A DNA stretch of 64,000 bases from a phage. The notes beneath the pieces were generated by a model that ran no database searches, was not told the origin of the DNA, and was given only the letters and a program-made list of their open reading frames with translations. The stretch lies in the sequence record PZ452594.1, one strand, 5' to 3'. The position numbers and the translations under genes are program-made. This document shows positions 5,424 to 40,708 of the stretch, piece after piece (the first letter of the stretch is position 1; every line of letters begins with the position of its first letter).

Positions 5424-5964
5424 ATAAAAAATCCAAACTAGGAGAATCGTCTACAACACTTTTCTTTTCAGCCCCCGGTGTTCTATAGGTTGATTCTTCG
5501 TAATGCGTCATTTTATCATAGATGTCTTGAATAAAAGTTTCATCTACTAACGCAACCATATCGTCGTCACGACTGTCATAGACATTGTGAACGAAGTAAC
5601 TGTATTTCTTTGCAACTTCCTTACGTTCTTTTTTAATACGTTGGACGAATGCATTAAAACAAGCTTGAGTTATATATGCATGCGGGTTTTTATATTTCGT
5701 TTCATCAAAATTATGAAGCCCCTTAATAGAAGCTTCTATACCATCTGCAATCATTTCTTGTTTCCAAGATTGGGTGTATCCTGAAAAGTTGAAACGTTTA
5801 GATAAGCCTTCTGCAATAAGCATAATGGCTAATCCGATAGTATCATTCTGACGAACTACTTTATTTGGGTCTTTATTATTTGCTAATTCTGTTTTCCAAT
5901 CAATAATAGCTTGTAAAAGCTCTTTATTGTTTACGTAATTATATTTAGGCTTAGTTTCTGACAT
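5407..5964 (-). CDS. 55: Late-transcription sigma factor gp55
   Basis: 185 aa from ATG at 5962-5964 (track M1 is GTG); [17 protein letters not shown]; T4 synteny. Confidence 0.85.
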
Positions 5965-35900: not shown

Positions 35901-36362
35901 TTATTTGATTTGTTTAGCAGACCAAATGCGGTCTTTGATGATTTTTTGGAGGTCTTCAACATACTCTAGGTCATGAGCATGTGGATTATCTTTGAAACTA
36001 TGAGCTCGCGCAAGTTTCTGGCCTTCGGTCTTAATTATCAAAAGTTCTTTAAGAATTGCTTCATACCTAGAGATAATTCCTTTAGCAATATTTTTTTCTT
36101 GTGCTGCTTTAGGGTCAGCCTTAGGAGCAGGTTTACCAGAAGGTTTTTCGAAAGCCGCACCAGTAGCAACCAGGCTTTTCCAGGCGGTGGTAACATAGTT
36201 ACCCACAAAGCCTTCAGCTCTCATATCGTCATAGAACTTGTACCGAGATTCGTCAGAAGCATCTTTATAAGAATATTTACCAGCTTTAATAGCAGCAGTT
36301 GCTACAGCGCGAACATCTGAAGCGGATGCTTCGGTCATTAAAAATTGAGCATAAGTTTTCAT
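35901..36362 (-). CDS. Candidate capsid-targeted (internal) protein, 153 aa
   Basis: N-terminus MKTYAQFLMTEA resembles internal-protein CTS MKTYQEFIAE; TATAAATA late promoter 29 nt upstream. Confidence 0.5.
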   Translation of the reverse strand: MKTYAQFLMTEASASDVRAVATAAIKAGKYSYKDASDESRYKFYDDMRAEGFVGNYVTTAWKSLVATGAAFEKPSGKPAPKADPKAAQEKNIAKGIISRYEAILKELLIIKTEGQKLARAHSFKDNPHAHDLEYVEDLQKIIKDRIWSAKQIK

Positions 36363-36390
36363 TGTTATTTCCTGTGTTAATTAACTCATC

Positions 36391-36398
36391 TATTTATA
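36391..36398 (-). promoter_or_regulatory. Late promoter (TATAAATA)
   Basis: Minus-strand TATAAATA upstream of ORF 35901-36362. Confidence 0.5.
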
Positions 36399-36429
36399 CC
36401 AAAAAAGCCCCAACCTTTCGGTCGGGGCT
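36397..36429 (-). terminator. Rho-independent terminator ending the tRNA/stable-RNA transcription unit
   Basis: AGCCCCGACC-GAAA-GGTTGGGGCT then TTTTTT on minus strand. Confidence 0.6.
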
Positions 36430-36439
36430 AAGCCTTGCG

Positions 36440-36740
36440 GCAACCTTGTCGGGGTTCCACCTGCTAAGGCAAGTGTTTGTACGAAACGCCGGGATTCGAA
36501 CCCGGTTATTAAGCAGTTGACGCTACTCAATATTTTTAAAAGGCCATATCTCGACCATATCCGAACGTTCCGTCAAAAACGCTACTCGGCTTACGGCAAA
36601 GATATTTCCTCGAATCGATAATTCGGTGCGCCGTTTCTGCTGTGATATAAGAGGGCATTAACAAAACATAAAGATTTATTAATGCCAGTCCTTAAACAGG
36701 GAACATCAGTCCGACGACTTACCGGTAGCGACCCGGTTTC
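36440..36740 (-). ncRNA. Probable small stable RNAs (T4 RNA C / RNA D-like); boundaries approximate
   Basis: Non-coding 300 nt between tRNA-Arg and terminator; contains tRNA-like T-arm GGGTTCGAATCCCGG. Confidence 0.35.
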
Positions 36741-36745
36741 TTGTT

Positions 36746-36820
36746 TGGTATCCCGCCCTGGGATCGAACCAGGACCGCAAACTTAGAAGGATCGTATGCT
36801 ATCCATTACACCAGCGGGAC
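36746..36820 (-). tRNA. tRNA-Arg (anticodon UCU)
   Basis: Cloverleaf read by eye; acceptor GTCCCGC/GCGGGAT, loop CUUCUAA, encoded CCA. Confidence 0.85.
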
Positions 36821-36825
36821 ATAAT

Positions 36826-37491
36826 TTAAAATTTCATTTTTCGACCTTTAAACCATCCTTCTGGAATTGGGTCAGTTTTCTTAATACGTTTAGAAACTTT
36901 TTCATCTAATGAATGAATCCACATCATACCAAATTGGGAATTCTTTTCACCTTTCTGGTGATTATTTTTAGCGTGAATTTCTTTCATTTTATTAATAGTT
37001 TCAAGAGTATGATGCTTATTTAAAAATCTGCTATTATTTAAAAATTTTTCCTTGTATTCAGGAGTTGACCATAAACGTTTAAATACATTTGAACCATTTT
37101 GACGATATTTTTCTTGAAGTAAAATATCATTTTTAAAACGTGACTTAAACGATTTAGCTCCTTTTAAACTAGCGTCTTTCTTCTGATTTAGCATCTCAGG
37201 AATATTTATATGATCCCATCCGCCTTCACCGCCAAGTTTTAAATTATACACATCTGGTCTATTTAAAAACTCTTCTGTGACAATATTTTTCTCGGCTTCA
37301 AGCATAGATTCTTTATCATCAAAATATTCTAATATTTCTTTAGAAAAATTTTCTATACCATACCTGTCTTGGGCTCTTTTTAATAATTTACCAGAACCCA
37401 TATATCCATCATCTAAATTTTCGGTAGAATGCACACCAATATAAATTTTATTATTAATTTTATTTGTTATTTTATAAAGATAAAAATGCAT
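36826..37491 (-). CDS. segB: GIY-YIG homing endonuclease (SegB-like) within tRNA cluster
   Basis: 221 aa from MHFYLYKITN; GIY-YIG motif YLYKITN...IYIGV...YMGSG; ORF-track N-extension overlaps a tRNA. Confidence 0.8.
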   Translation of the reverse strand: MHFYLYKITNKINNKIYIGVHSTENLDDGYMGSGKLLKRAQDRYGIENFSKEILEYFDDKESMLEAEKNIVTEEFLNRPDVYNLKLGGEGGWDHINIPEMLNQKKDASLKGAKSFKSRFKNDILLQEKYRQNGSNVFKRLWSTPEYKEKFLNNSRFLNKHHTLETINKMKEIHAKNNHQKGEKNSQFGMMWIHSLDEKVSKRIKKTDPIPEGWFKGRKMKF

Positions 37492-37537
37492 ATCAGTCCT
37501 TAATAAAGAACTGAGCGTCTCACGACGAGTCATAAAT

Positions 37538-37624
37538 TGGTGGGGAGTGATGGAGTCGAACCACCCGAGTCGCAATGACAATGAATTTACAGTCCACACC
37601 GCTACCTCTACGGGATAACTCCCC
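37538..37624 (-). tRNA. tRNA-Tyr-like (anticodon GUA), type II, additional to the T4 set
   Basis: Perfect 7-bp acceptor GGGGAGT/ACTCCCC, T-arm GGTGG-TTCGACT-CCATC, loop CUGUAAA, variable hairpin, encoded CCA; D-arm non-canonical. Confidence 0.55.
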
Positions 37625-37633
37625 TAATTAATT

Positions 37634-37710
37634 TGGTGACCCAGACCAGATTTGAACTGGTAACCTTTCCCTTATGAGGGGACTGCTGCTAACCATTGAG
37701 CTACAGGGCC
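37634..37710 (-). tRNA. tRNA-Ile (anticodon CAU; could read as Met)
   Basis: Anticodon loop CUCAUAA, T-arm ACCAG-TTCAAAT-CTGGT, CCA encoded; D-stem irregular (TTAGCAGCAG). Confidence 0.65.
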
Positions 37711-37711
37711 T

Positions 37712-37787
37712 TGGTGCTGATTGACGGAATCGAACCGCCGACCTTCTCATTACAAGTGAGTTGCTCTACCTACTGAGCTAAATCAGC
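37712..37787 (-). tRNA. tRNA-Thr (anticodon UGU)
   Basis: Acceptor GCTGATT/AATCAGC, loop CUUGUAA, CCA encoded. Confidence 0.85.
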
Positions 37788-37789
37788 AA

Positions 37790-37876
37790 CGGAGGCGATA
37801 GGATTCGAACCTATGAATCGCCGGAGCGACTGCCGGTTTTCAAGACCGGTGCATTAAACCACTCTGCCACGCCTCC
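37790..37876 (-). tRNA. tRNA-Ser (anticodon UGA), type II
   Basis: Acceptor GGAGGCG/CGCCTCC, loop CUUGAAA, long variable arm; CCA not encoded. Confidence 0.85.
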
Positions 37877-37878
37877 AG

Positions 37879-37952
37879 TCTCCATACAAGGATTTGAACC
37901 TTGGACCTCCTGATCCCAAATCAGGCGCTCTACCAAACTGAGCTACACGGAG
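37879..37952 (-). tRNA. tRNA-Pro (anticodon UGG)
   Basis: Anticodon stem-loop CCTGA-TTTGGGA-TCAGG; abuts tRNA-Ser (dimeric precursor). Confidence 0.85.
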
Positions 37953-37962
37953 TAAATTAAAT

Positions 37963-38036
<74 letters not shown>

Positions 38037-38041
38037 AAATT

Positions 38042-38128
38042 TGGTGCGAGAAGTGGGACTCGAACCCACAAGGAAATCATTCCGCAGCATTTTAAGTGCT
38101 GTGCCTTTACCAATTTGACCATTCTCGC
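38042..38128 (-). tRNA. tRNA-Leu (anticodon UAA), type II
   Basis: GCGAGAATGGTCAAATTGGTAAAGGCACAGCACTTAAAATGCTG...; CCA encoded. Confidence 0.9.
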
Positions 38129-38129
38129 G

Positions 38130-38202
38130 CTGGGAATAAAGGACTCGAACCTTTGCATCCTGGAATCAAAATCCAGTGCCTTACCAACTTGGCTAATTCC
38201 CA
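38130..38202 (-). tRNA. tRNA-Gln (anticodon UUG)
   Basis: Anticodon stem-loop CTGGA-TTTTGAT-TCCAG; abuts tRNA-Leu. Confidence 0.85.
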
Positions 38203-38299
38203 ATTATTAACAAAGGCTCTCAAACAAGAACCCTTGATGATAGAGGGTATTAATCAGTGCGGTATGAGTTAATAATAACAAATAATTCTTAAAGCATAT

Positions 38300-38593
38300 T
38301 TACCATTTATGATGATACATACTTACGATGCATTCAAGACCCAAAGAATTCTTGAAAATATCATATTCAAGAGGACCTTTTTCTGTTTCGATAAAGAAAT
38401 CAAAATTTACTGTATTAAATTTACGGTCTTCCTTTACTAATTTAACTTGAGAAGATGAACGGTCAATGTAAACCTTTTCAACTTCAAAACATGTTAAAAT
38501 GCCATAATCATCGATCAAGGCTTTAGCTGCTTCTTGATCATATTTATATCCATTTTCAATGGATGATACTTTTGCATAAAGAATCATTATCAC
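38300..38593 (-). CDS. Hypothetical protein (97 aa)
   Basis: ORF in variable region between tRNAs and ipI. Confidence 0.45.
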   Translation of the reverse strand: MIMILYAKVSSIENGYKYDQEAAKALIDDYGILTCFEVEKVYIDRSSSQVKLVKEDRKFNTVNFDFFIETEKGPLEYDIFKNSLGLECIVSMYHHKW

Positions 38594-38970
38594 ACTCCGT
38601 AGTCTATCTTGACCAATCTACCTTTGTAGTAGCCAAAGTTCTTTGGAAAGGCATCATACTCAAAGAAATCACGGTCAAGCGTTCTACATTCATCACCATC
38701 AACATCATTATAGAGCTTTTGCAAATCAGATTTAAAAAGCTCCTTATCCTCAACTGGCTCTGCTTTGTGCATCACAACCATGAGACCAAATCTGTTTGAG
38801 TATGCTATTGGGCATAGGTGCTTGTTATCATACCCCTTCCACTGACCTTCTGTAAGATTGCTGAGCATACCCTGCACGAAGTGTTTCCATGTCTTGGGGA
38901 TAGGGAACTTAATAGCATACTTACGTGTTAGTAGTACCCATCTGGTTCCACCCGATTTAATTAATTTCAT
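38590..38970 (-). CDS. Hypothetical protein (126 aa)
   Basis: ORF, 4-nt overlap with neighbour. Confidence 0.45.
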   Translation of the reverse strand: MKLIKSGGTRWVLLTRKYAIKFPIPKTWKHFVQGMLSNLTEGQWKGYDNKHLCPIAYSNRFGLMVVMHKAEPVEDKELFKSDLQKLYNDVDGDECRTLDRDFFEYDAFPKNFGYYKGRLVKIDYGV

Positions 38971-39044
38971 AGTCTCAGCTACCTCAATATTAATTTAAGC
39001 AATATCATTCCTATAAGGTAATACTTTAGCATAAAGAATCATTG

Positions 39045-39455
39045 TCAGCCTCTATCAACGATAGCATGAGTATGGGCATTTACGATTTGCCACCAGTCGA
39101 AACGATTGGAACCATAATCTGGTTTATTTTCATTTTCTTTAATGATATCACGCAACTTATCTTCTGTTTCAGCATACGCAATTAAATCATCATATCCACC
39201 GCAAGGATAATAATTATCACCTGCGAATAAAAGAAAATTTACCTTAGATGGATTTACGTAATAATGGTCTTTAGGATATTTAGTTCCTCTCCAATCAGTT
39301 ACTTCAACATAACGGTAAGAAAATCCATTTTTACTTTCAATCCAACTCCACGCTTCAAAAGGAGTATTAAAAACTTTATCAGGTATTAAATTACCTTCAA
39401 AATGAGAAGGATTTGCATAATCCCCGGCATAAACATAATATTCGTTAATACTCAT
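39045..39455 (-). CDS. Hypothetical protein (136 aa)
   Basis: ORF. Confidence 0.45.
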   Translation of the reverse strand: MSINEYYVYAGDYANPSHFEGNLIPDKVFNTPFEAWSWIESKNGFSYRYVEVTDWRGTKYPKDHYYVNPSKVNFLLFAGDNYYPCGGYDDLIAYAETEDKLRDIIKENENKPDYGSNRFDWWQIVNAHTHAIVDRG

Positions 39456-39641
39456 TTATTCACCTTTAGAAATTTTATCCATAACGATAGCGATTAAACC
39501 AATTAAAAATGCTACTACAAGCGAAAACACATTTTCTGCTGTAGTTAATAATCCGCATATAAATCCAACAAACATTGAAAAACTAAAAGCGGAAGCAGAA
39601 ATTGCAATAGCAACATTTCGAATTAATTCACAACGTTTCAT
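39456..39641 (-). CDS. Small membrane protein (61 aa)
   Basis: Two hydrophobic helices; early promoter upstream. Confidence 0.4.
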   Translation of the reverse strand: MKRCELIRNVAIAISASAFSFSMFVGFICGLLTTAENVFSLVVAFLIGLIAIVMDKISKGE

Positions 39642-39660
39642 TTTATTCTCCTCGGTAGTT

Positions 39661-39690
39661 GATAGGGTAATAGTATCACTACCCTATCTA
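39661..39690 (-). promoter_or_regulatory. T4-type early promoter
   Basis: GTTTAC-N18-TACTAT; 23-bp block TGATAGGGTAATAGTATCACTAC repeated at 39959-39981. Confidence 0.5.
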
Positions 39691-39699
39691 AAAGTAAAC

Positions 39700-39933
39700 T
39701 TATTTTTTACGAAAAATTGATTTATATTTATCAGCCCATTTCTCAATGACTTTTGCCGGGCCATAGATAACAAAGTAATCGCCAAACTCTTCACCACCGA
39801 GTTGACCGAAATCATCTAATGCATCACGAAGAACTCCATGAGGCATTTCACCCATTTTATCTTTCTTGCCAGTGTAAATAAACTCAACTTTTACATCAGC
39901 AGTTTCAGCAATAAATTCTTGATACGTTTTCAT
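39700..39933 (-). CDS. ipI: Internal protein I-like capsid-packaged protein (variant)
   Basis: N-terminus MKTYQEFIAE (exact T4 CTS) from ATG at 39933; mature part unlike T4 IPI as recalled. Confidence 0.65.
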   Translation of the reverse strand: MKTYQEFIAETADVKVEFIYTGKKDKMGEMPHGVLRDALDDFGQLGGEEFGDYFVIYGPAKVIEKWADKYKSIFRKK

Positions 39934-39969
39934 TTTGTTCTCCAATTTCACATTTGTTTTGATAGGGTA

Positions 39970-39999
39970 ATAGTATCACTACTAAAACCCCATGTAAAC
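39970..39999 (-). promoter_or_regulatory. T4-type early promoter upstream of ipI-like gene
   Basis: GTTTAC-N18-TACTAT on minus strand. Confidence 0.5.
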
Positions 40000-40011
40000 A
40001 ACTTTGTGAAA

Positions 40012-40708
<697 letters not shown>

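What the first reader, a model, noticed from the sequence alone, without database searches (positions are those of the whole stretch)
38300..39641. Variable block of four unknown early ORFs between the tRNA cluster and ipI
Seen: ORFs of 97, 126, 136 and 61 aa with no recognisable motifs, served by their own early promoter; the promoter core TGATAGGGTAATAGTATCACTAC is duplicated at 39651-39673 and 39959-39981. Established: the tRNA-ipI interval is a known hot spot of gene replacement among T-even phages. Inference: strain-specific accessory genes, possibly exclusion or anti-defense functions.
Basis: partly seen in the sequence, partly recalled or inferred. Interest (0 to 1): 0.4.

Follow-up and report, generated by a model that had tools for sequence, protein, structure and literature searches.

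The report
Conserved T4 genes plus inserted half-kinase
Three of the four "unknown" genes are the ordinary, widely conserved T4 genes trna.2, trna.3 and trna.4; the fourth is a rare, recently imported 455-bp cassette encoding a 126-residue protein that looks like a protein kinase cut off right after its metal-binding motif, and it belongs to a large, uncharacterised phage family.

Summary
The four ORFs exist as described. The window is a Tequatrovirus. The 97/95-, 136- and 61-aa ORFs are T4 trna.2 (96% identity), trna.3 (100%) and trna.4 (100%). They occur in about 770-800 phage records, so they are not strain-specific. Only the 126-aa ORF is variable. It sits in a 455-bp insertion at the trna.3/trna.2 junction, flanked by a 32-nt direct repeat, and is found in only 8 Tequatroviruses. 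Its GC3 is 44%, against 14-24% for its neighbours. Close relatives occur in T1-like, N4-like, rV5-like, FelixO1-like, jumbo and lambdoid phages. Its model (pLDDT 89) matches protein kinases almost exclusively. Across 101 diverse relatives the residues aligning with the β3 Lys, αC Glu and DFG Asp are invariant, and the catalytic-loop Asp/Glu and Asn/Ser are 99% conserved. Three quarters of these relatives end 2-3 residues after the DFG Asp. It therefore looks like a half-kinase (PHROG 4301, function unknown, about 1000 clusters). The duplicated "promoter core" is real, at 39660-39682 and 39960-39982. It is part of a known PeSL-type promoter/hairpin cassette that flanks the internal-protein gene. 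That gene is Ip6 here, not ipI. The function of the half-kinase is inferred, not shown.

The parts
38300..38587 (-). trna.2 orthologue (95 aa from the ATG; the mechanical ORF starts at GTG 38593)
   Evidence: 96% identical to T4 Trna.2. phrog_2023 at 2.5e-47. tblastn finds it in 804 phage records.
38566..38597 (.). Direct repeat, copy B (ORF126 stop / trna.2 start junction)
   Evidence: 32 nt, 88% identical to the copy at 39021-39052, with start-to-start spacing of 455 nt.
38590..38970 (-). ORF126: half-kinase (protein-kinase-like fold ending 3 residues after the DFG-type Asp); the only truly variable gene of the block
38971..39020 (-). Foreign 5' leader of the cassette, including the tail of a 15-codon remnant ORF (38995-39042, MILYAKVLPYRNDIA*)
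   Evidence: DNA homology to N4-like phage phi G17 extends 47 nt upstream of the ORF126 ATG. The remnant was read directly from the sequence.
39021..39052 (.). Direct repeat, copy A (trna.3 stop plus a duplicated first 7 codons of trna.2)
   Evidence: T4 and T6 have a single copy of this junction.
39045..39455 (-). trna.3 orthologue (136 aa): variable N-terminal half, conserved C-terminal half
39456..39641 (-). trna.4 orthologue (61 aa, small hydrophobic, probably membrane protein)
   Evidence: 100% identical to T4 Trna.4. phrog_1692. Found in 791 records, 429 of them at >=99%. Annotated as 'putative membrane protein' in T6.
39661..39698 (-). PeSL-type early promoter upstream of trna.4: -35 TTTACT (39698-39693), 17-nt spacer, TG-extended -10 TACTAT (39675-39670). 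A 12-bp hairpin at 39661-39688 encloses the -10.
   Evidence: Sequence. Conserved upstream of trna.4, ipI, Ip5 and Ip6 in T4, T6 and the window. Hairpin dG -16.4 kcal/mol, z -3.3. Consensus quoted from PMC4122927.
39700..39933 (-). Ip6-type internal head protein (77 aa, targeting peptide MKTYQEFIAE); outside the finding but flanked by the two promoter copies
   Evidence: 82% identical to T6 Ip6. Only 16 residues of weak similarity to T4 IPI. phrog_8111.
39952..39998 (-). Second PeSL-type promoter/hairpin, upstream of Ip6 (-35 TTTACA 39998-39993, -10 TACTAT 39975-39970)
   Evidence: Hairpin dG -18.3 kcal/mol, z -4.2.

Best explanation
The block is the protein-coding stretch between the internal-protein locus and the tRNA genes of a T4-type phage. 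It reads trna.4, trna.3, [insert], trna.2, abutting or separated by a few bases apart from the 74-nt cassette leader upstream of ORF126. A PeSL-type early promoter/hairpin cassette lies upstream of it. The same cassette is repeated 300 bp further upstream, in front of the internal-protein gene, which here is Ip6.

Three of the genes are conserved T-even genes of unknown function. trna.4 is a small, probably membrane, protein. trna.3 is a two-domain protein with a hypervariable N-terminal half and a conserved C-terminal half. trna.2 is a small soluble protein.

The fourth gene, ORF126, is a recent horizontal acquisition. A 455-bp unit entered exactly at the trna.3/trna.2 junction. It consists of the ORF, about 47 nt of foreign leader, and a duplicated junction. 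It is now bracketed by a 32-nt direct repeat. That arrangement is what a single crossover of a small circle, or two microhomology joins, would produce. The same repeat would allow precise loss of the unit.

ORF126 folds as the N-lobe plus catalytic-loop/DFG core of a protein kinase and stops there. My best guess is that it is an ATP-dependent phosphotransferase made early in infection. It would act on a host or defence component, or on a small molecule, because it has no peptide-binding C-lobe.

Shown: gene identities, the insertion anatomy, the foreign base composition, purifying selection, the predicted fold and the motif conservation. Inferred: promoter use and co-transcription, the integration mechanism, catalytic activity and biological role.

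Approximate sub-confidences: identities 0.99; horizontal cassette 0.95; kinase-like fold 0.85; active enzyme 0.5; host-takeover or anti-defence role 0.35.
For: Identity and conservation of trna.2/3/4.

Insertion:
- T4 and T6 lack 455 bp at this point.
- A 32-nt direct repeat has a spacing of 455 nt.
- The same 459-nt segment, at >=98.7% identity, is present in only 8 distinct Tequatroviruses (10 records) with different tRNA, homing-endonuclease and Ip backgrounds.
- ORF126 has GC3 of 44% against 14-24% for its neighbours.
- DNA homology to phi G17 covers the ORF plus 47 nt of leader, with junction microhomologies AAAG.A and TGAnnATGATT.

Mobility: homologues at 57-85% identity occur in T1-like, N4-like, rV5-like, FelixO1-like and lambdoid phages, and at 28-44% in jumbo phages. 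No neighbour is conserved across these contexts.

Fold:
- AF2 pLDDT 89 and pTM 0.79.
- The Foldseek top 50 are all protein kinases or antibiotic/sugar kinases of the same fold, with probabilities from 0.82 to 1.0.

Motifs, across 101 representatives of clusters defined at 50% identity:
- G7, R10, K21, E41 and D123 are 100% conserved.
- D/E106 and N/S111 are 99% conserved.
- 75 of 101 end 2-3 residues after D123.
- Profile alignments place D106/N111/D123 on the DLKPxN...DFG register of TTK and PKA.

Selection: dN/dS is 0.10-0.17.

Family size: 1012 cluster representatives at E<=1e-3, and all 101 scanned members match phrog_4301.

Promoter cassette: and PMC4122927.
Against: - No sequence-level match to any kinase family reaches significance. 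Pfam gives none for ORF126; among family members the best hits are PIP49_C at 1e-3 and ABC1 at 0.04. PDB profile hits are at E~0.25 and hhalign to PKA is at E 0.22.
- The protein lacks the whole helical C-lobe (alphaF to alphaI) and the activation segment, which canonical kinases need for stability and substrate binding.
- 43% of family members have Glu instead of Asp at the catalytic-base position.
- A distant 267-aa homologue (Kc263) lacks that acid altogether in a pairwise alignment.
- No experiment, fusion partner, conserved neighbour or literature report points to a substrate.
- The trna.4 promoter copy falls below the generic sigma-70 scan threshold, and no transcript data were available.
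- The model coordinates could not be inspected, so the ATP-site geometry was not verified.
Confidence: 0.55

Rival explanations
1. One reading: the whole four-ORF block is a strain-specific replacement cassette of accessory genes in a hypervariable interval.
For: The interval does vary between phages. Some have extra ORFs between tRNA-Gln and trna.2, and the Ip cassettes differ. Only 10 of 776 matching records cover >=80% of 38200-40020.
Against: That low coverage is explained by ORF126 and by the Ip type alone. trna.2, trna.3 and trna.4 are 96-100% identical to T4 and are present in 768-804 records in the same order.
Confidence: 0.05
2. ORF126 is a non-catalytic nucleotide binder. It would be a pseudokinase, a decoy, or a sponge for ATP-derived immune signals, using the kinase-like pocket only for binding, by analogy with small phage sponge proteins.
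For: It is small (126 aa) and stand-alone, and it lacks the C-lobe and the substrate-binding elements. It is widely mobile among unrelated phages, as anti-defence genes are. The catalytic-base position tolerates Asp or Glu, and Asn or Ser.
Against: Five positions that in kinases serve ATP/Mg2+ positioning and catalysis are invariant across clusters defined at 50% identity, and the catalytic-loop acid and amide/hydroxyl are 99% conserved. That is tighter than binding alone usually requires. No similarity to known sponge folds appeared in the fold searches.
Confidence: 0.25
3. ORF126 is a phage-versus-phage or host-protecting function, such as superinfection exclusion or a prophage-encoded defence 'moron', rather than a counter-defence or host-takeover enzyme.
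For: A 59%-identical homologue sits in a lambdoid prophage of E. coli between the Q antiterminator and the lysis genes. By my own knowledge, that is the classic moron position.
Against: Most carriers are virulent phages: T4-like, T1-like, N4-like, rV5-like, FelixO1-like and jumbo. In several, the gene lies among small ORFs of apparently early regions. There is no hit to any PADLOC defence model.
Confidence: 0.12
4. ORF126 is a decaying fragment of a full-length kinase gene and has no function of its own.
For: It ends right after the DFG motif. A few distant homologues are longer, for example Kc263 at 267 aa and others at 205-244 aa.
Against: 75 of 101 diverse cluster representatives end 2-3 residues after the same Asp, and the median length is 125 aa. 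dN/dS is 0.10-0.17. The AF2 model is confident for the whole chain. The extra parts of the longer homologues have no Pfam domain.
Confidence: 0.03

Closest known systems
T4 genes trna.2, trna.3, trna.4 (NP_049746-8; uncharacterised ORFs between tRNA-Gln and ipI)
   Same: Same order, same strand and same gene junctions. 96%, 100% and 100% protein identity.
   Different: In the window the trna.3/trna.2 junction is split by a 455-bp insertion. The only functional data found is enrichment of T4 Trna.2 in a DRT1 pull-down, which the authors did not follow up (PMC13275509).
Minimal protein-kinase-like enzymes: Bud32, Rio1/Rio2, Shigella OspG, archaeal RNA kinase Ark1/ArkI (169-270 aa)
   Different: ORF126 is 40-140 residues shorter and ends 3 residues after the DFG Asp, so by secondary-structure order it has no alphaF or later helices at all. 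There is no significant sequence similarity. It has an invariant Arg in the Gly-rich loop (GxTR) and a DYG motif.
Phage T7 gp0.7 kinase (T7K) / JSS1_004, early promiscuous anti-defence kinases
   Same: A phage kinase-fold protein encoded behind an early-type promoter. This is the functional precedent for phage kinases disarming defence systems (PMC13645617, PMC12345140).
   Different: T7K-type kinases have a DPV motif in place of DFG, carry a C-terminal shut-off/DNA-binding domain and, per PMC12345140, occur almost exclusively in Autographiviridae. ORF126 has DYG, has no second domain, and was not recovered as a relative of them in any search. Activity is unproven.
PeSL (promoter-early stem-loop) cassettes of T4-type phages (Arbiol et al. 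2010; Comeau et al. 2014)
   Same: Matches the TTTACW-N17-TAYWAT promoter consensus. It carries a stable stem-loop, is repeated either side of a swappable ORF (the Ip gene), and lies in a plastic region.
   Different: Here the hairpin encloses the -10 box, whereas the PST figure legend describes the stem-loop as lying just upstream of the promoter. The ORF126 insertion itself is bracketed by a duplicated gene junction, not by PeSLs.
T-even internal protein locus (IPI / Ip5 / Ip6 cassettes; Repoila et al. 1994, as cited in PMC4122927)
   Same: The gene upstream of the block is an Ip6 cassette with the conserved targeting peptide, and each Ip gene is preceded by the same promoter cassette.
   Different: The window has one Ip gene here, whereas T6 has two.

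Membership tests
T4 trna.2 / trna.3 / trna.4 orthologue set | High protein identity to the T4 reference proteins | tested here: met
   96%, 100% and 100% identity.
T4 trna.2 / trna.3 / trna.4 orthologue set | Synteny: tRNA-Gln, trna.2, trna.3, trna.4, Ip gene, 57B, on one strand | tested here: met
   The only break is the 455-bp insertion between trna.3 and trna.2.
Protein-kinase-like (PKL) superfamily | N-lobe: five-stranded sheet plus alphaC, with a beta3 Lys - alphaC Glu pair | tested here: met
   [not shown]
Protein-kinase-like (PKL) superfamily | Catalytic loop D-x-K-x-x-N and Mg-binding DFG Asp, in register | tested here: met
   D/E106 99%, K at +2 75%, N/S111 99%, D123 100%, and DYG. 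The register agrees with TTK and PKA.
Protein-kinase-like (PKL) superfamily | Helical C-lobe core (alphaE-alphaF and beyond) and activation segment | tested here: not met
   The chain ends 3 residues after the DFG Asp, and 75 of 101 family representatives do the same. Only one long helix (76-92) precedes the catalytic loop.
Protein-kinase-like (PKL) superfamily | Significant sequence match to a curated kinase family model | tested here: not met
   No Pfam or NCBIfam kinase hit for ORF126. The best hits among 101 members are PIP49_C at 1e-3 and ABC1 at 0.04, both below cut-off. PDB profile hits are at E~0.25.
Protein-kinase-like (PKL) superfamily | ATP-dependent phosphotransfer activity | not testable with these tools
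   This needs biochemistry.
T7 gp0.7 / JSS1_004 kinase family | DPV motif in place of DFG, C-terminal shut-off domain, and homology to gp0.7 | tested here: not met
   ORF126 has DYG and no C-terminal domain. The family features are taken from PMC13645617 and PMC12345140. No direct sequence comparison with gp0.7 was run.
PeSL promoter/stem-loop cassette | Early promoter TTTACW-N17-TAYWAT followed by a Shine-Dalgarno sequence and a start codon | tested here: met
   Both copies match. The consensus is from PMC4122927.
PeSL promoter/stem-loop cassette | Stable stem-loop associated with the promoter | tested here: met
   dG of -16.4 and -18.3 kcal/mol, with z of -3.3 and -4.2. The arms differ by paired changes between copies: GATAGGGTA/TACCCTATC against T4 PipI GATGAGGTA/TACCTCATC. 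The position differs, because here the hairpin encloses the -10 rather than lying upstream.
PeSL promoter/stem-loop cassette | Mediates excision or integration of the intervening ORF as a mini-circle | not testable with these tools
   This needs PCR or sequencing of circular junctions.
Ip6 internal head protein | N-terminal capsid-targeting peptide and homology to T6 Ip6 | tested here: met
   MKTYQEFIAE is present, and identity to T6 Ip6 is 82%. phrog_8111.

The most novel reading that the evidence does not exclude
PHROG 4301 would be the smallest self-sufficient protein-kinase-like enzyme family known. Its members are about 120 residues long and consist of the N-lobe plus the catalytic loop and DFG, with no alphaF scaffold. 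Phages of at least seven unrelated lineages would have spread it horizontally as an early effector that phosphorylates a host or immune component or a small-molecule signal. The T4-type copy in this window would be a recent capture, kept by selection despite being flanked by repeats that could delete it.
Probability: 0.3. Interest if true: 0.75.

Novelty: new variant of a known kind. Interest (0 to 1): 0.5.

Why it matters
For the block as a whole, the result is corrective. Three of the four genes are ordinary T4 genes, and the duplicated promoter is a known type of cassette.

The inserted gene is the interesting part. It belongs to a family of roughly a thousand sequence clusters, carried by phages of at least seven lineages. 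The family keeps every ATP/Mg2+-binding and catalytic residue of a protein kinase but lacks the half of the fold thought to hold a kinase together and to bind its substrates. If it is active, it would redefine the minimal kinase. It would also add a second, unrelated class of phage kinases to the T7 gp0.7 class recently shown to disarm bacterial defences.

It can be tested directly. The protein is 126 residues long, and natural phages with and without the cassette exist, including the BASEL phage PaulHMueller (locus tags bas45_).

The clean insertion scar is also a well-resolved example of how T-even phages capture a foreign gene at a gene junction. It consists of a 32-nt duplicated junction, microhomologies at both ends, and base composition that has not yet drifted towards that of the host phage.

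Tried and rejected
- Pfam, NCBIfam and PADLOC scans of all four proteins gave nothing above threshold.
- Sequence and profile searches of the PDB for ORF126 and trna.3 gave nothing significant.
- I looked for a partner gene supplying the missing C-lobe. Neighbours of ORF126 homologues in N4-like, T1-like, lambdoid and Dhakavirus contexts share no similarity with each other or with trna.2/3/4.
- I looked for informative fusions in the longer family members. None has a Pfam domain.
- A relation to T7 gp0.7/JSS1_004 was rejected on motif and architecture.
- An Rfam scan of 36000-40600 found only tRNAs and sub-threshold noise, and nothing in the block.
- No intrinsic-terminator-like sites were found.
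- A MotA-box-like TGCTTAA in the cassette leader lacks a correctly spaced -10, so I did not call it a middle promoter (my own reading).
- Literature searches for the gene, its locus tags, PHROG 4301 or small phage kinases found nothing.
- The T4 genome review (PMC150520) is not held.
Full report
**What is at the coordinates**

The window is a T4-type (Tequatrovirus) genome whose genes here run on the minus strand. Reading in the direction of transcription, the order is:
- dNMP kinase (gene 1), 57A, 57B;
- an internal-protein gene, 39700-39933;
- the four ORFs of the finding;
- a cluster of nine tRNA genes interrupted by segB.

The 23-nt "promoter core" is present exactly twice in 64 kb, where none is expected by chance.

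**Three of the four ORFs are ordinary T4 genes**

In the T4 reference record the interval between tRNA-Gln and ipI holds trna.2 (95 aa), trna.3 (136 aa) and trna.4 (61 aa). T6 has the same three genes. The window's proteins are 96%, 100% and 100% identical to T4's.

tblastn against 50,697 phage records finds trna.2 in 804, trna.3 in 768 and trna.4 in 791. Nearly all of these are T-even-like phages of Escherichia, Shigella, Yersinia, Klebsiella and Salmonella. These genes are therefore conserved and not strain-specific, although none has an assigned function.

What can be said about each gene:
- trna.4 is a small hydrophobic protein. T6 annotators call it a putative membrane protein, and 429 records carry it at >=99% identity.
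- For trna.2, the only published functional data I found is enrichment of T4 Trna.2 in a pull-down of the DRT1 defence reverse transcriptase. The authors did not pursue it (PMC13275509).

**The fourth ORF is an insertion**

Aligning the window with T4 and T6 shows that 455 bp are simply absent from both, at the point where trna.3 stops and trna.2 starts. The insertion is bracketed by a 32-nt direct repeat at 38566-38597 and 39021-39052. The copies are 88% identical and their starts are exactly 455 nt apart. Each copy holds a stop codon, two or three bases, and the first seven codons of trna.2. The upstream copy is left as a 15-codon remnant ORF, MILYAKVLPYRNDIA*.

The same 459-nt segment, at 98.7-99.6% identity, is found in only eight distinct Tequatroviruses: ESh17, QOTSP, EL, PaulHMueller, PhiZZ30, G10400, G4507 and ECP52. 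It is always at this site. Those phages differ in tRNA sets, homing endonucleases, extra ORFs and internal-protein cassettes. This pattern suggests one capture event followed by spread through recombination.

The gene's composition is foreign. Its GC is 40.9% and its GC3 is 44%, whereas its neighbours have GC3 of 14-24%.

DNA similarity to the N4-like phage phi G17 (74%) covers the ORF plus 47 nt of its leader, and it stops where the duplicated trna.2 sequence begins. Both joints show short microhomologies: AAAG.A upstream, and TGAnnATGATT at the stop/start overlap.

A single crossover between a small circle carrying one copy of the junction and the resident junction would give exactly this structure. 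Two microhomology-mediated joins would give it too. Recombination between the repeats would delete the cassette precisely. These mechanistic steps are inference.

**What the inserted gene encodes**

ORF126 has no Pfam, NCBIfam or PADLOC match. It belongs to PHROG 4301, which has no assigned function.

The sequence carries a series of motifs that resemble those of a protein kinase:
- GGTR;
- AIK;
- a conserved Glu in the following helix;
- YDAFPKN;
- IDYG, at the very C-terminus.

An AlphaFold2 model built on 21 homologues is confident (pLDDT 89, pTM 0.79). Its secondary-structure order is that of a kinase from beta1 to the DFG motif.

The fold searches gave the following results:
- Foldseek against the PDB returns kinases in all of its top 50 hits: Lpg2603, CK2, WbdD, TTK, APH(2''), PknE and others. 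The best E-value is 5.6e-4 and probabilities run from 0.82 to 1.0.

An exhaustive profile search finds 1012 cluster representatives at E<=1e-3 and 410 at <=1e-10. Almost all are 110-135 residues long. In an alignment of 101 of them:
- G7, R10, K21, E41 and D123 are invariant.
- The catalytic-loop acid is Asp or Glu in 99%.
- The Asn position is Asn or Ser in 99%.
- A Lys sits two residues after the acid in 75%, giving D-x-K-P-x-N as in eukaryotic-type kinases.
- 75 of 101 proteins end two or three residues after the DFG-type Asp.

Sequence-profile matches to solved kinases are not significant (TTK at E~0.25; PKA by hhalign at E 0.22). They do place D106, N111 and D123 on the catalytic Asp, the Asn and the DFG Asp.

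dN/dS against the T1-like and N4-like copies is 0.10 and 0.17.

I conclude that ORF126 is a deliberately short "half-kinase": the N-lobe plus the catalytic loop and metal-binding motif, with no activation segment and no alphaF-alphaI helices. It is not a decaying fragment.

**Where else the gene occurs**

Homologues occur in the following contexts:
- 81-85% identity: T1-like siphoviruses, among small ORFs near the DUF3987 primase/helicase gene.
- 79%: rV5-like phages.
- 74%: N4-like phi G17 and Moonfish.
- 61%: a FelixO1-like phage.
- 59%: a lambdoid prophage of E. coli, between the Q antiterminator and the lysis genes.
- 37%: the T4-like Dhakavirus JS10, at a different locus next to rnlB.
- 28-44%: many jumbo phages. 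In some of these it is the N-terminal half of a longer protein that submitters annotated as a Ser/Thr kinase.

No neighbouring gene is shared between these contexts. The longer versions carry no recognisable extra domain. The gene therefore travels alone, as accessory genes do.

**How it most likely works**

The closest functional precedent is the early T7 gp0.7 kinase and its relative JSS1_004. They phosphorylate many host proteins and inactivate several defence systems (PMC13645617, PMC12345140). ORF126 is not a member of that family, because it has DYG rather than DPV and no shut-off domain.

Three observations make an early phosphotransferase acting on a host or defence target my best guess:
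- it lies behind an early-type promoter;
- its catalytic residues are strictly conserved;
- it is mobile across mostly virulent phages.

Because it has no peptide-binding lobe, the substrate may be a small molecule or a nucleotide. Alternatively, the protein may need to dimerise or to dock onto a partner.

I rate the kinase-like fold at about 0.85, catalytic activity at about 0.5, and an anti-defence or host-takeover role at about 0.35. The rivals are a non-catalytic nucleotide binder or sponge, an exclusion or defence function (suggested by the prophage context), and a functionless remnant. The length and selection data effectively exclude the last.

**The promoter duplication**

On the minus strand both copies read TTTAC(T/A), 17 nt, TG-n-TACTAT. 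This is the early-promoter consensus that Comeau et al. give for T4/PST PeSL elements. The generic sigma-70 scan reports only the copy upstream of the Ip gene.

An alignment of the regions upstream of trna.4, ipI, Ip5 and Ip6 from T4, T6 and the window shows one conserved cassette of about 80 nt in front of each gene. Each copy can form a hairpin that encloses the -10 box. The free energies are -16 to -18 kcal/mol, with z-scores of -3.3 to -4.2 for three of the four copies. Two variants of the stem differ by paired changes on both arms: GATAGGGTA/TACCCTATC against GATGAGGTA/TACCTCATC.

This is the PeSL type of composite element. That literature already links such repeats to the shuffling of internal-protein genes first noted by Repoila et al..

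In the window the two copies bracket a single Ip6 gene (82% identical to T6 Ip6), not ipI. The pattern occurs nowhere else in the window.

From my own recollection of work by Broida and Abelson, which I could not check here, the promoter upstream of trna.4 is also the early promoter of the tRNA operon. If so, the block would be the leader of that operon rather than a separate unit.

**Verdict**

The block is not a replaceable cassette of four orphan genes. It consists of three conserved T4 genes with one recently captured foreign gene wedged between them, and real plasticity is confined to discrete slots.

The captured gene is the part worth following up. It represents a large, unstudied phage family with the catalytic half of a kinase and nothing else.

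Noticed in passing
window 36826-37491 (-), within the tRNA cluster 36746-38202: A GIY-YIG homing endonuclease 100% identical to T6 SegB sits between tRNA-Arg and tRNA-Tyr. The nine-tRNA set (Arg, Tyr, Met, Thr, Ser, Pro, Gly, Leu, Gln) is a mosaic of the T4 and T6 sets. SegB homing co-converts flanking markers (PMC2330249), so it might help nearby cassettes such as ORF126 spread in mixed infections. That last point is speculation.
   Followed up: partly
window 40012-40467 (-): Gene 57B is the anti-CBASS nuclease Acb1 (Pfam PF23474, E 2.6e-60). A proven anti-defence gene therefore lies about 0.4 kb upstream of the block, next to the internal-protein cassette.
   Followed up: partly
window 39661-39688 and 39952-39999; L002 (T4) 5517-5575 and 5880-5940: The hairpin enclosing the -10 box of each promoter cassette is kept by paired changes on both arms between copies (AG/CT against GA/TC). 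In other copies a 7-bp stem with a longer loop takes its place. Its role is unknown: it could stabilise read-through transcripts, terminate them, or serve as a recombination site. No U-tract follows it.
   Followed up: partly
L004 890-1484 (QOTSP); L005 890-1405 (PaulHMueller); L006 890-1405 (ESh17): Other Tequatroviruses carry one or two additional ORFs (93 and 102 aa, or 171 aa) between tRNA-Gln and trna.2. In the window this position is a 97-nt gap at 38203-38299. It is a second insertion slot in the same operon.
   Followed up: no
window 38995-39042 (-): A 15-codon remnant ORF (MILYAKVLPYRNDIA*) was created by duplication of the trna.2 start. It begins 2 nt after the trna.3 stop codon and ends 24 nt before the ORF126 ATG, so it may couple translation into ORF126.
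   Followed up: no
[not shown]
   Followed up: partly
window 39045-39455 (-) and homologues P0046-P0063: All trna.3 homologues carry a precomputed Pfam label, PF26894. That model is absent from the local Pfam copy, which reported no family for this protein. The C-terminal motif NFLLFAGDNYYPxGGYxDL also hits three other PHROGs and a Bacillus phage, so it is a wider phage domain.
   Followed up: no
A6 alignment (ORF126 family), position 10 of ORF126: An Arg in the Gly-rich loop (GxTR) is invariant in all 101 representatives, and Asn38 in the alphaC helix is 97% conserved. By my own knowledge, neither is a canonical kinase feature. They may mark the family's substrate or phosphate-handling chemistry.
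   Followed up: no
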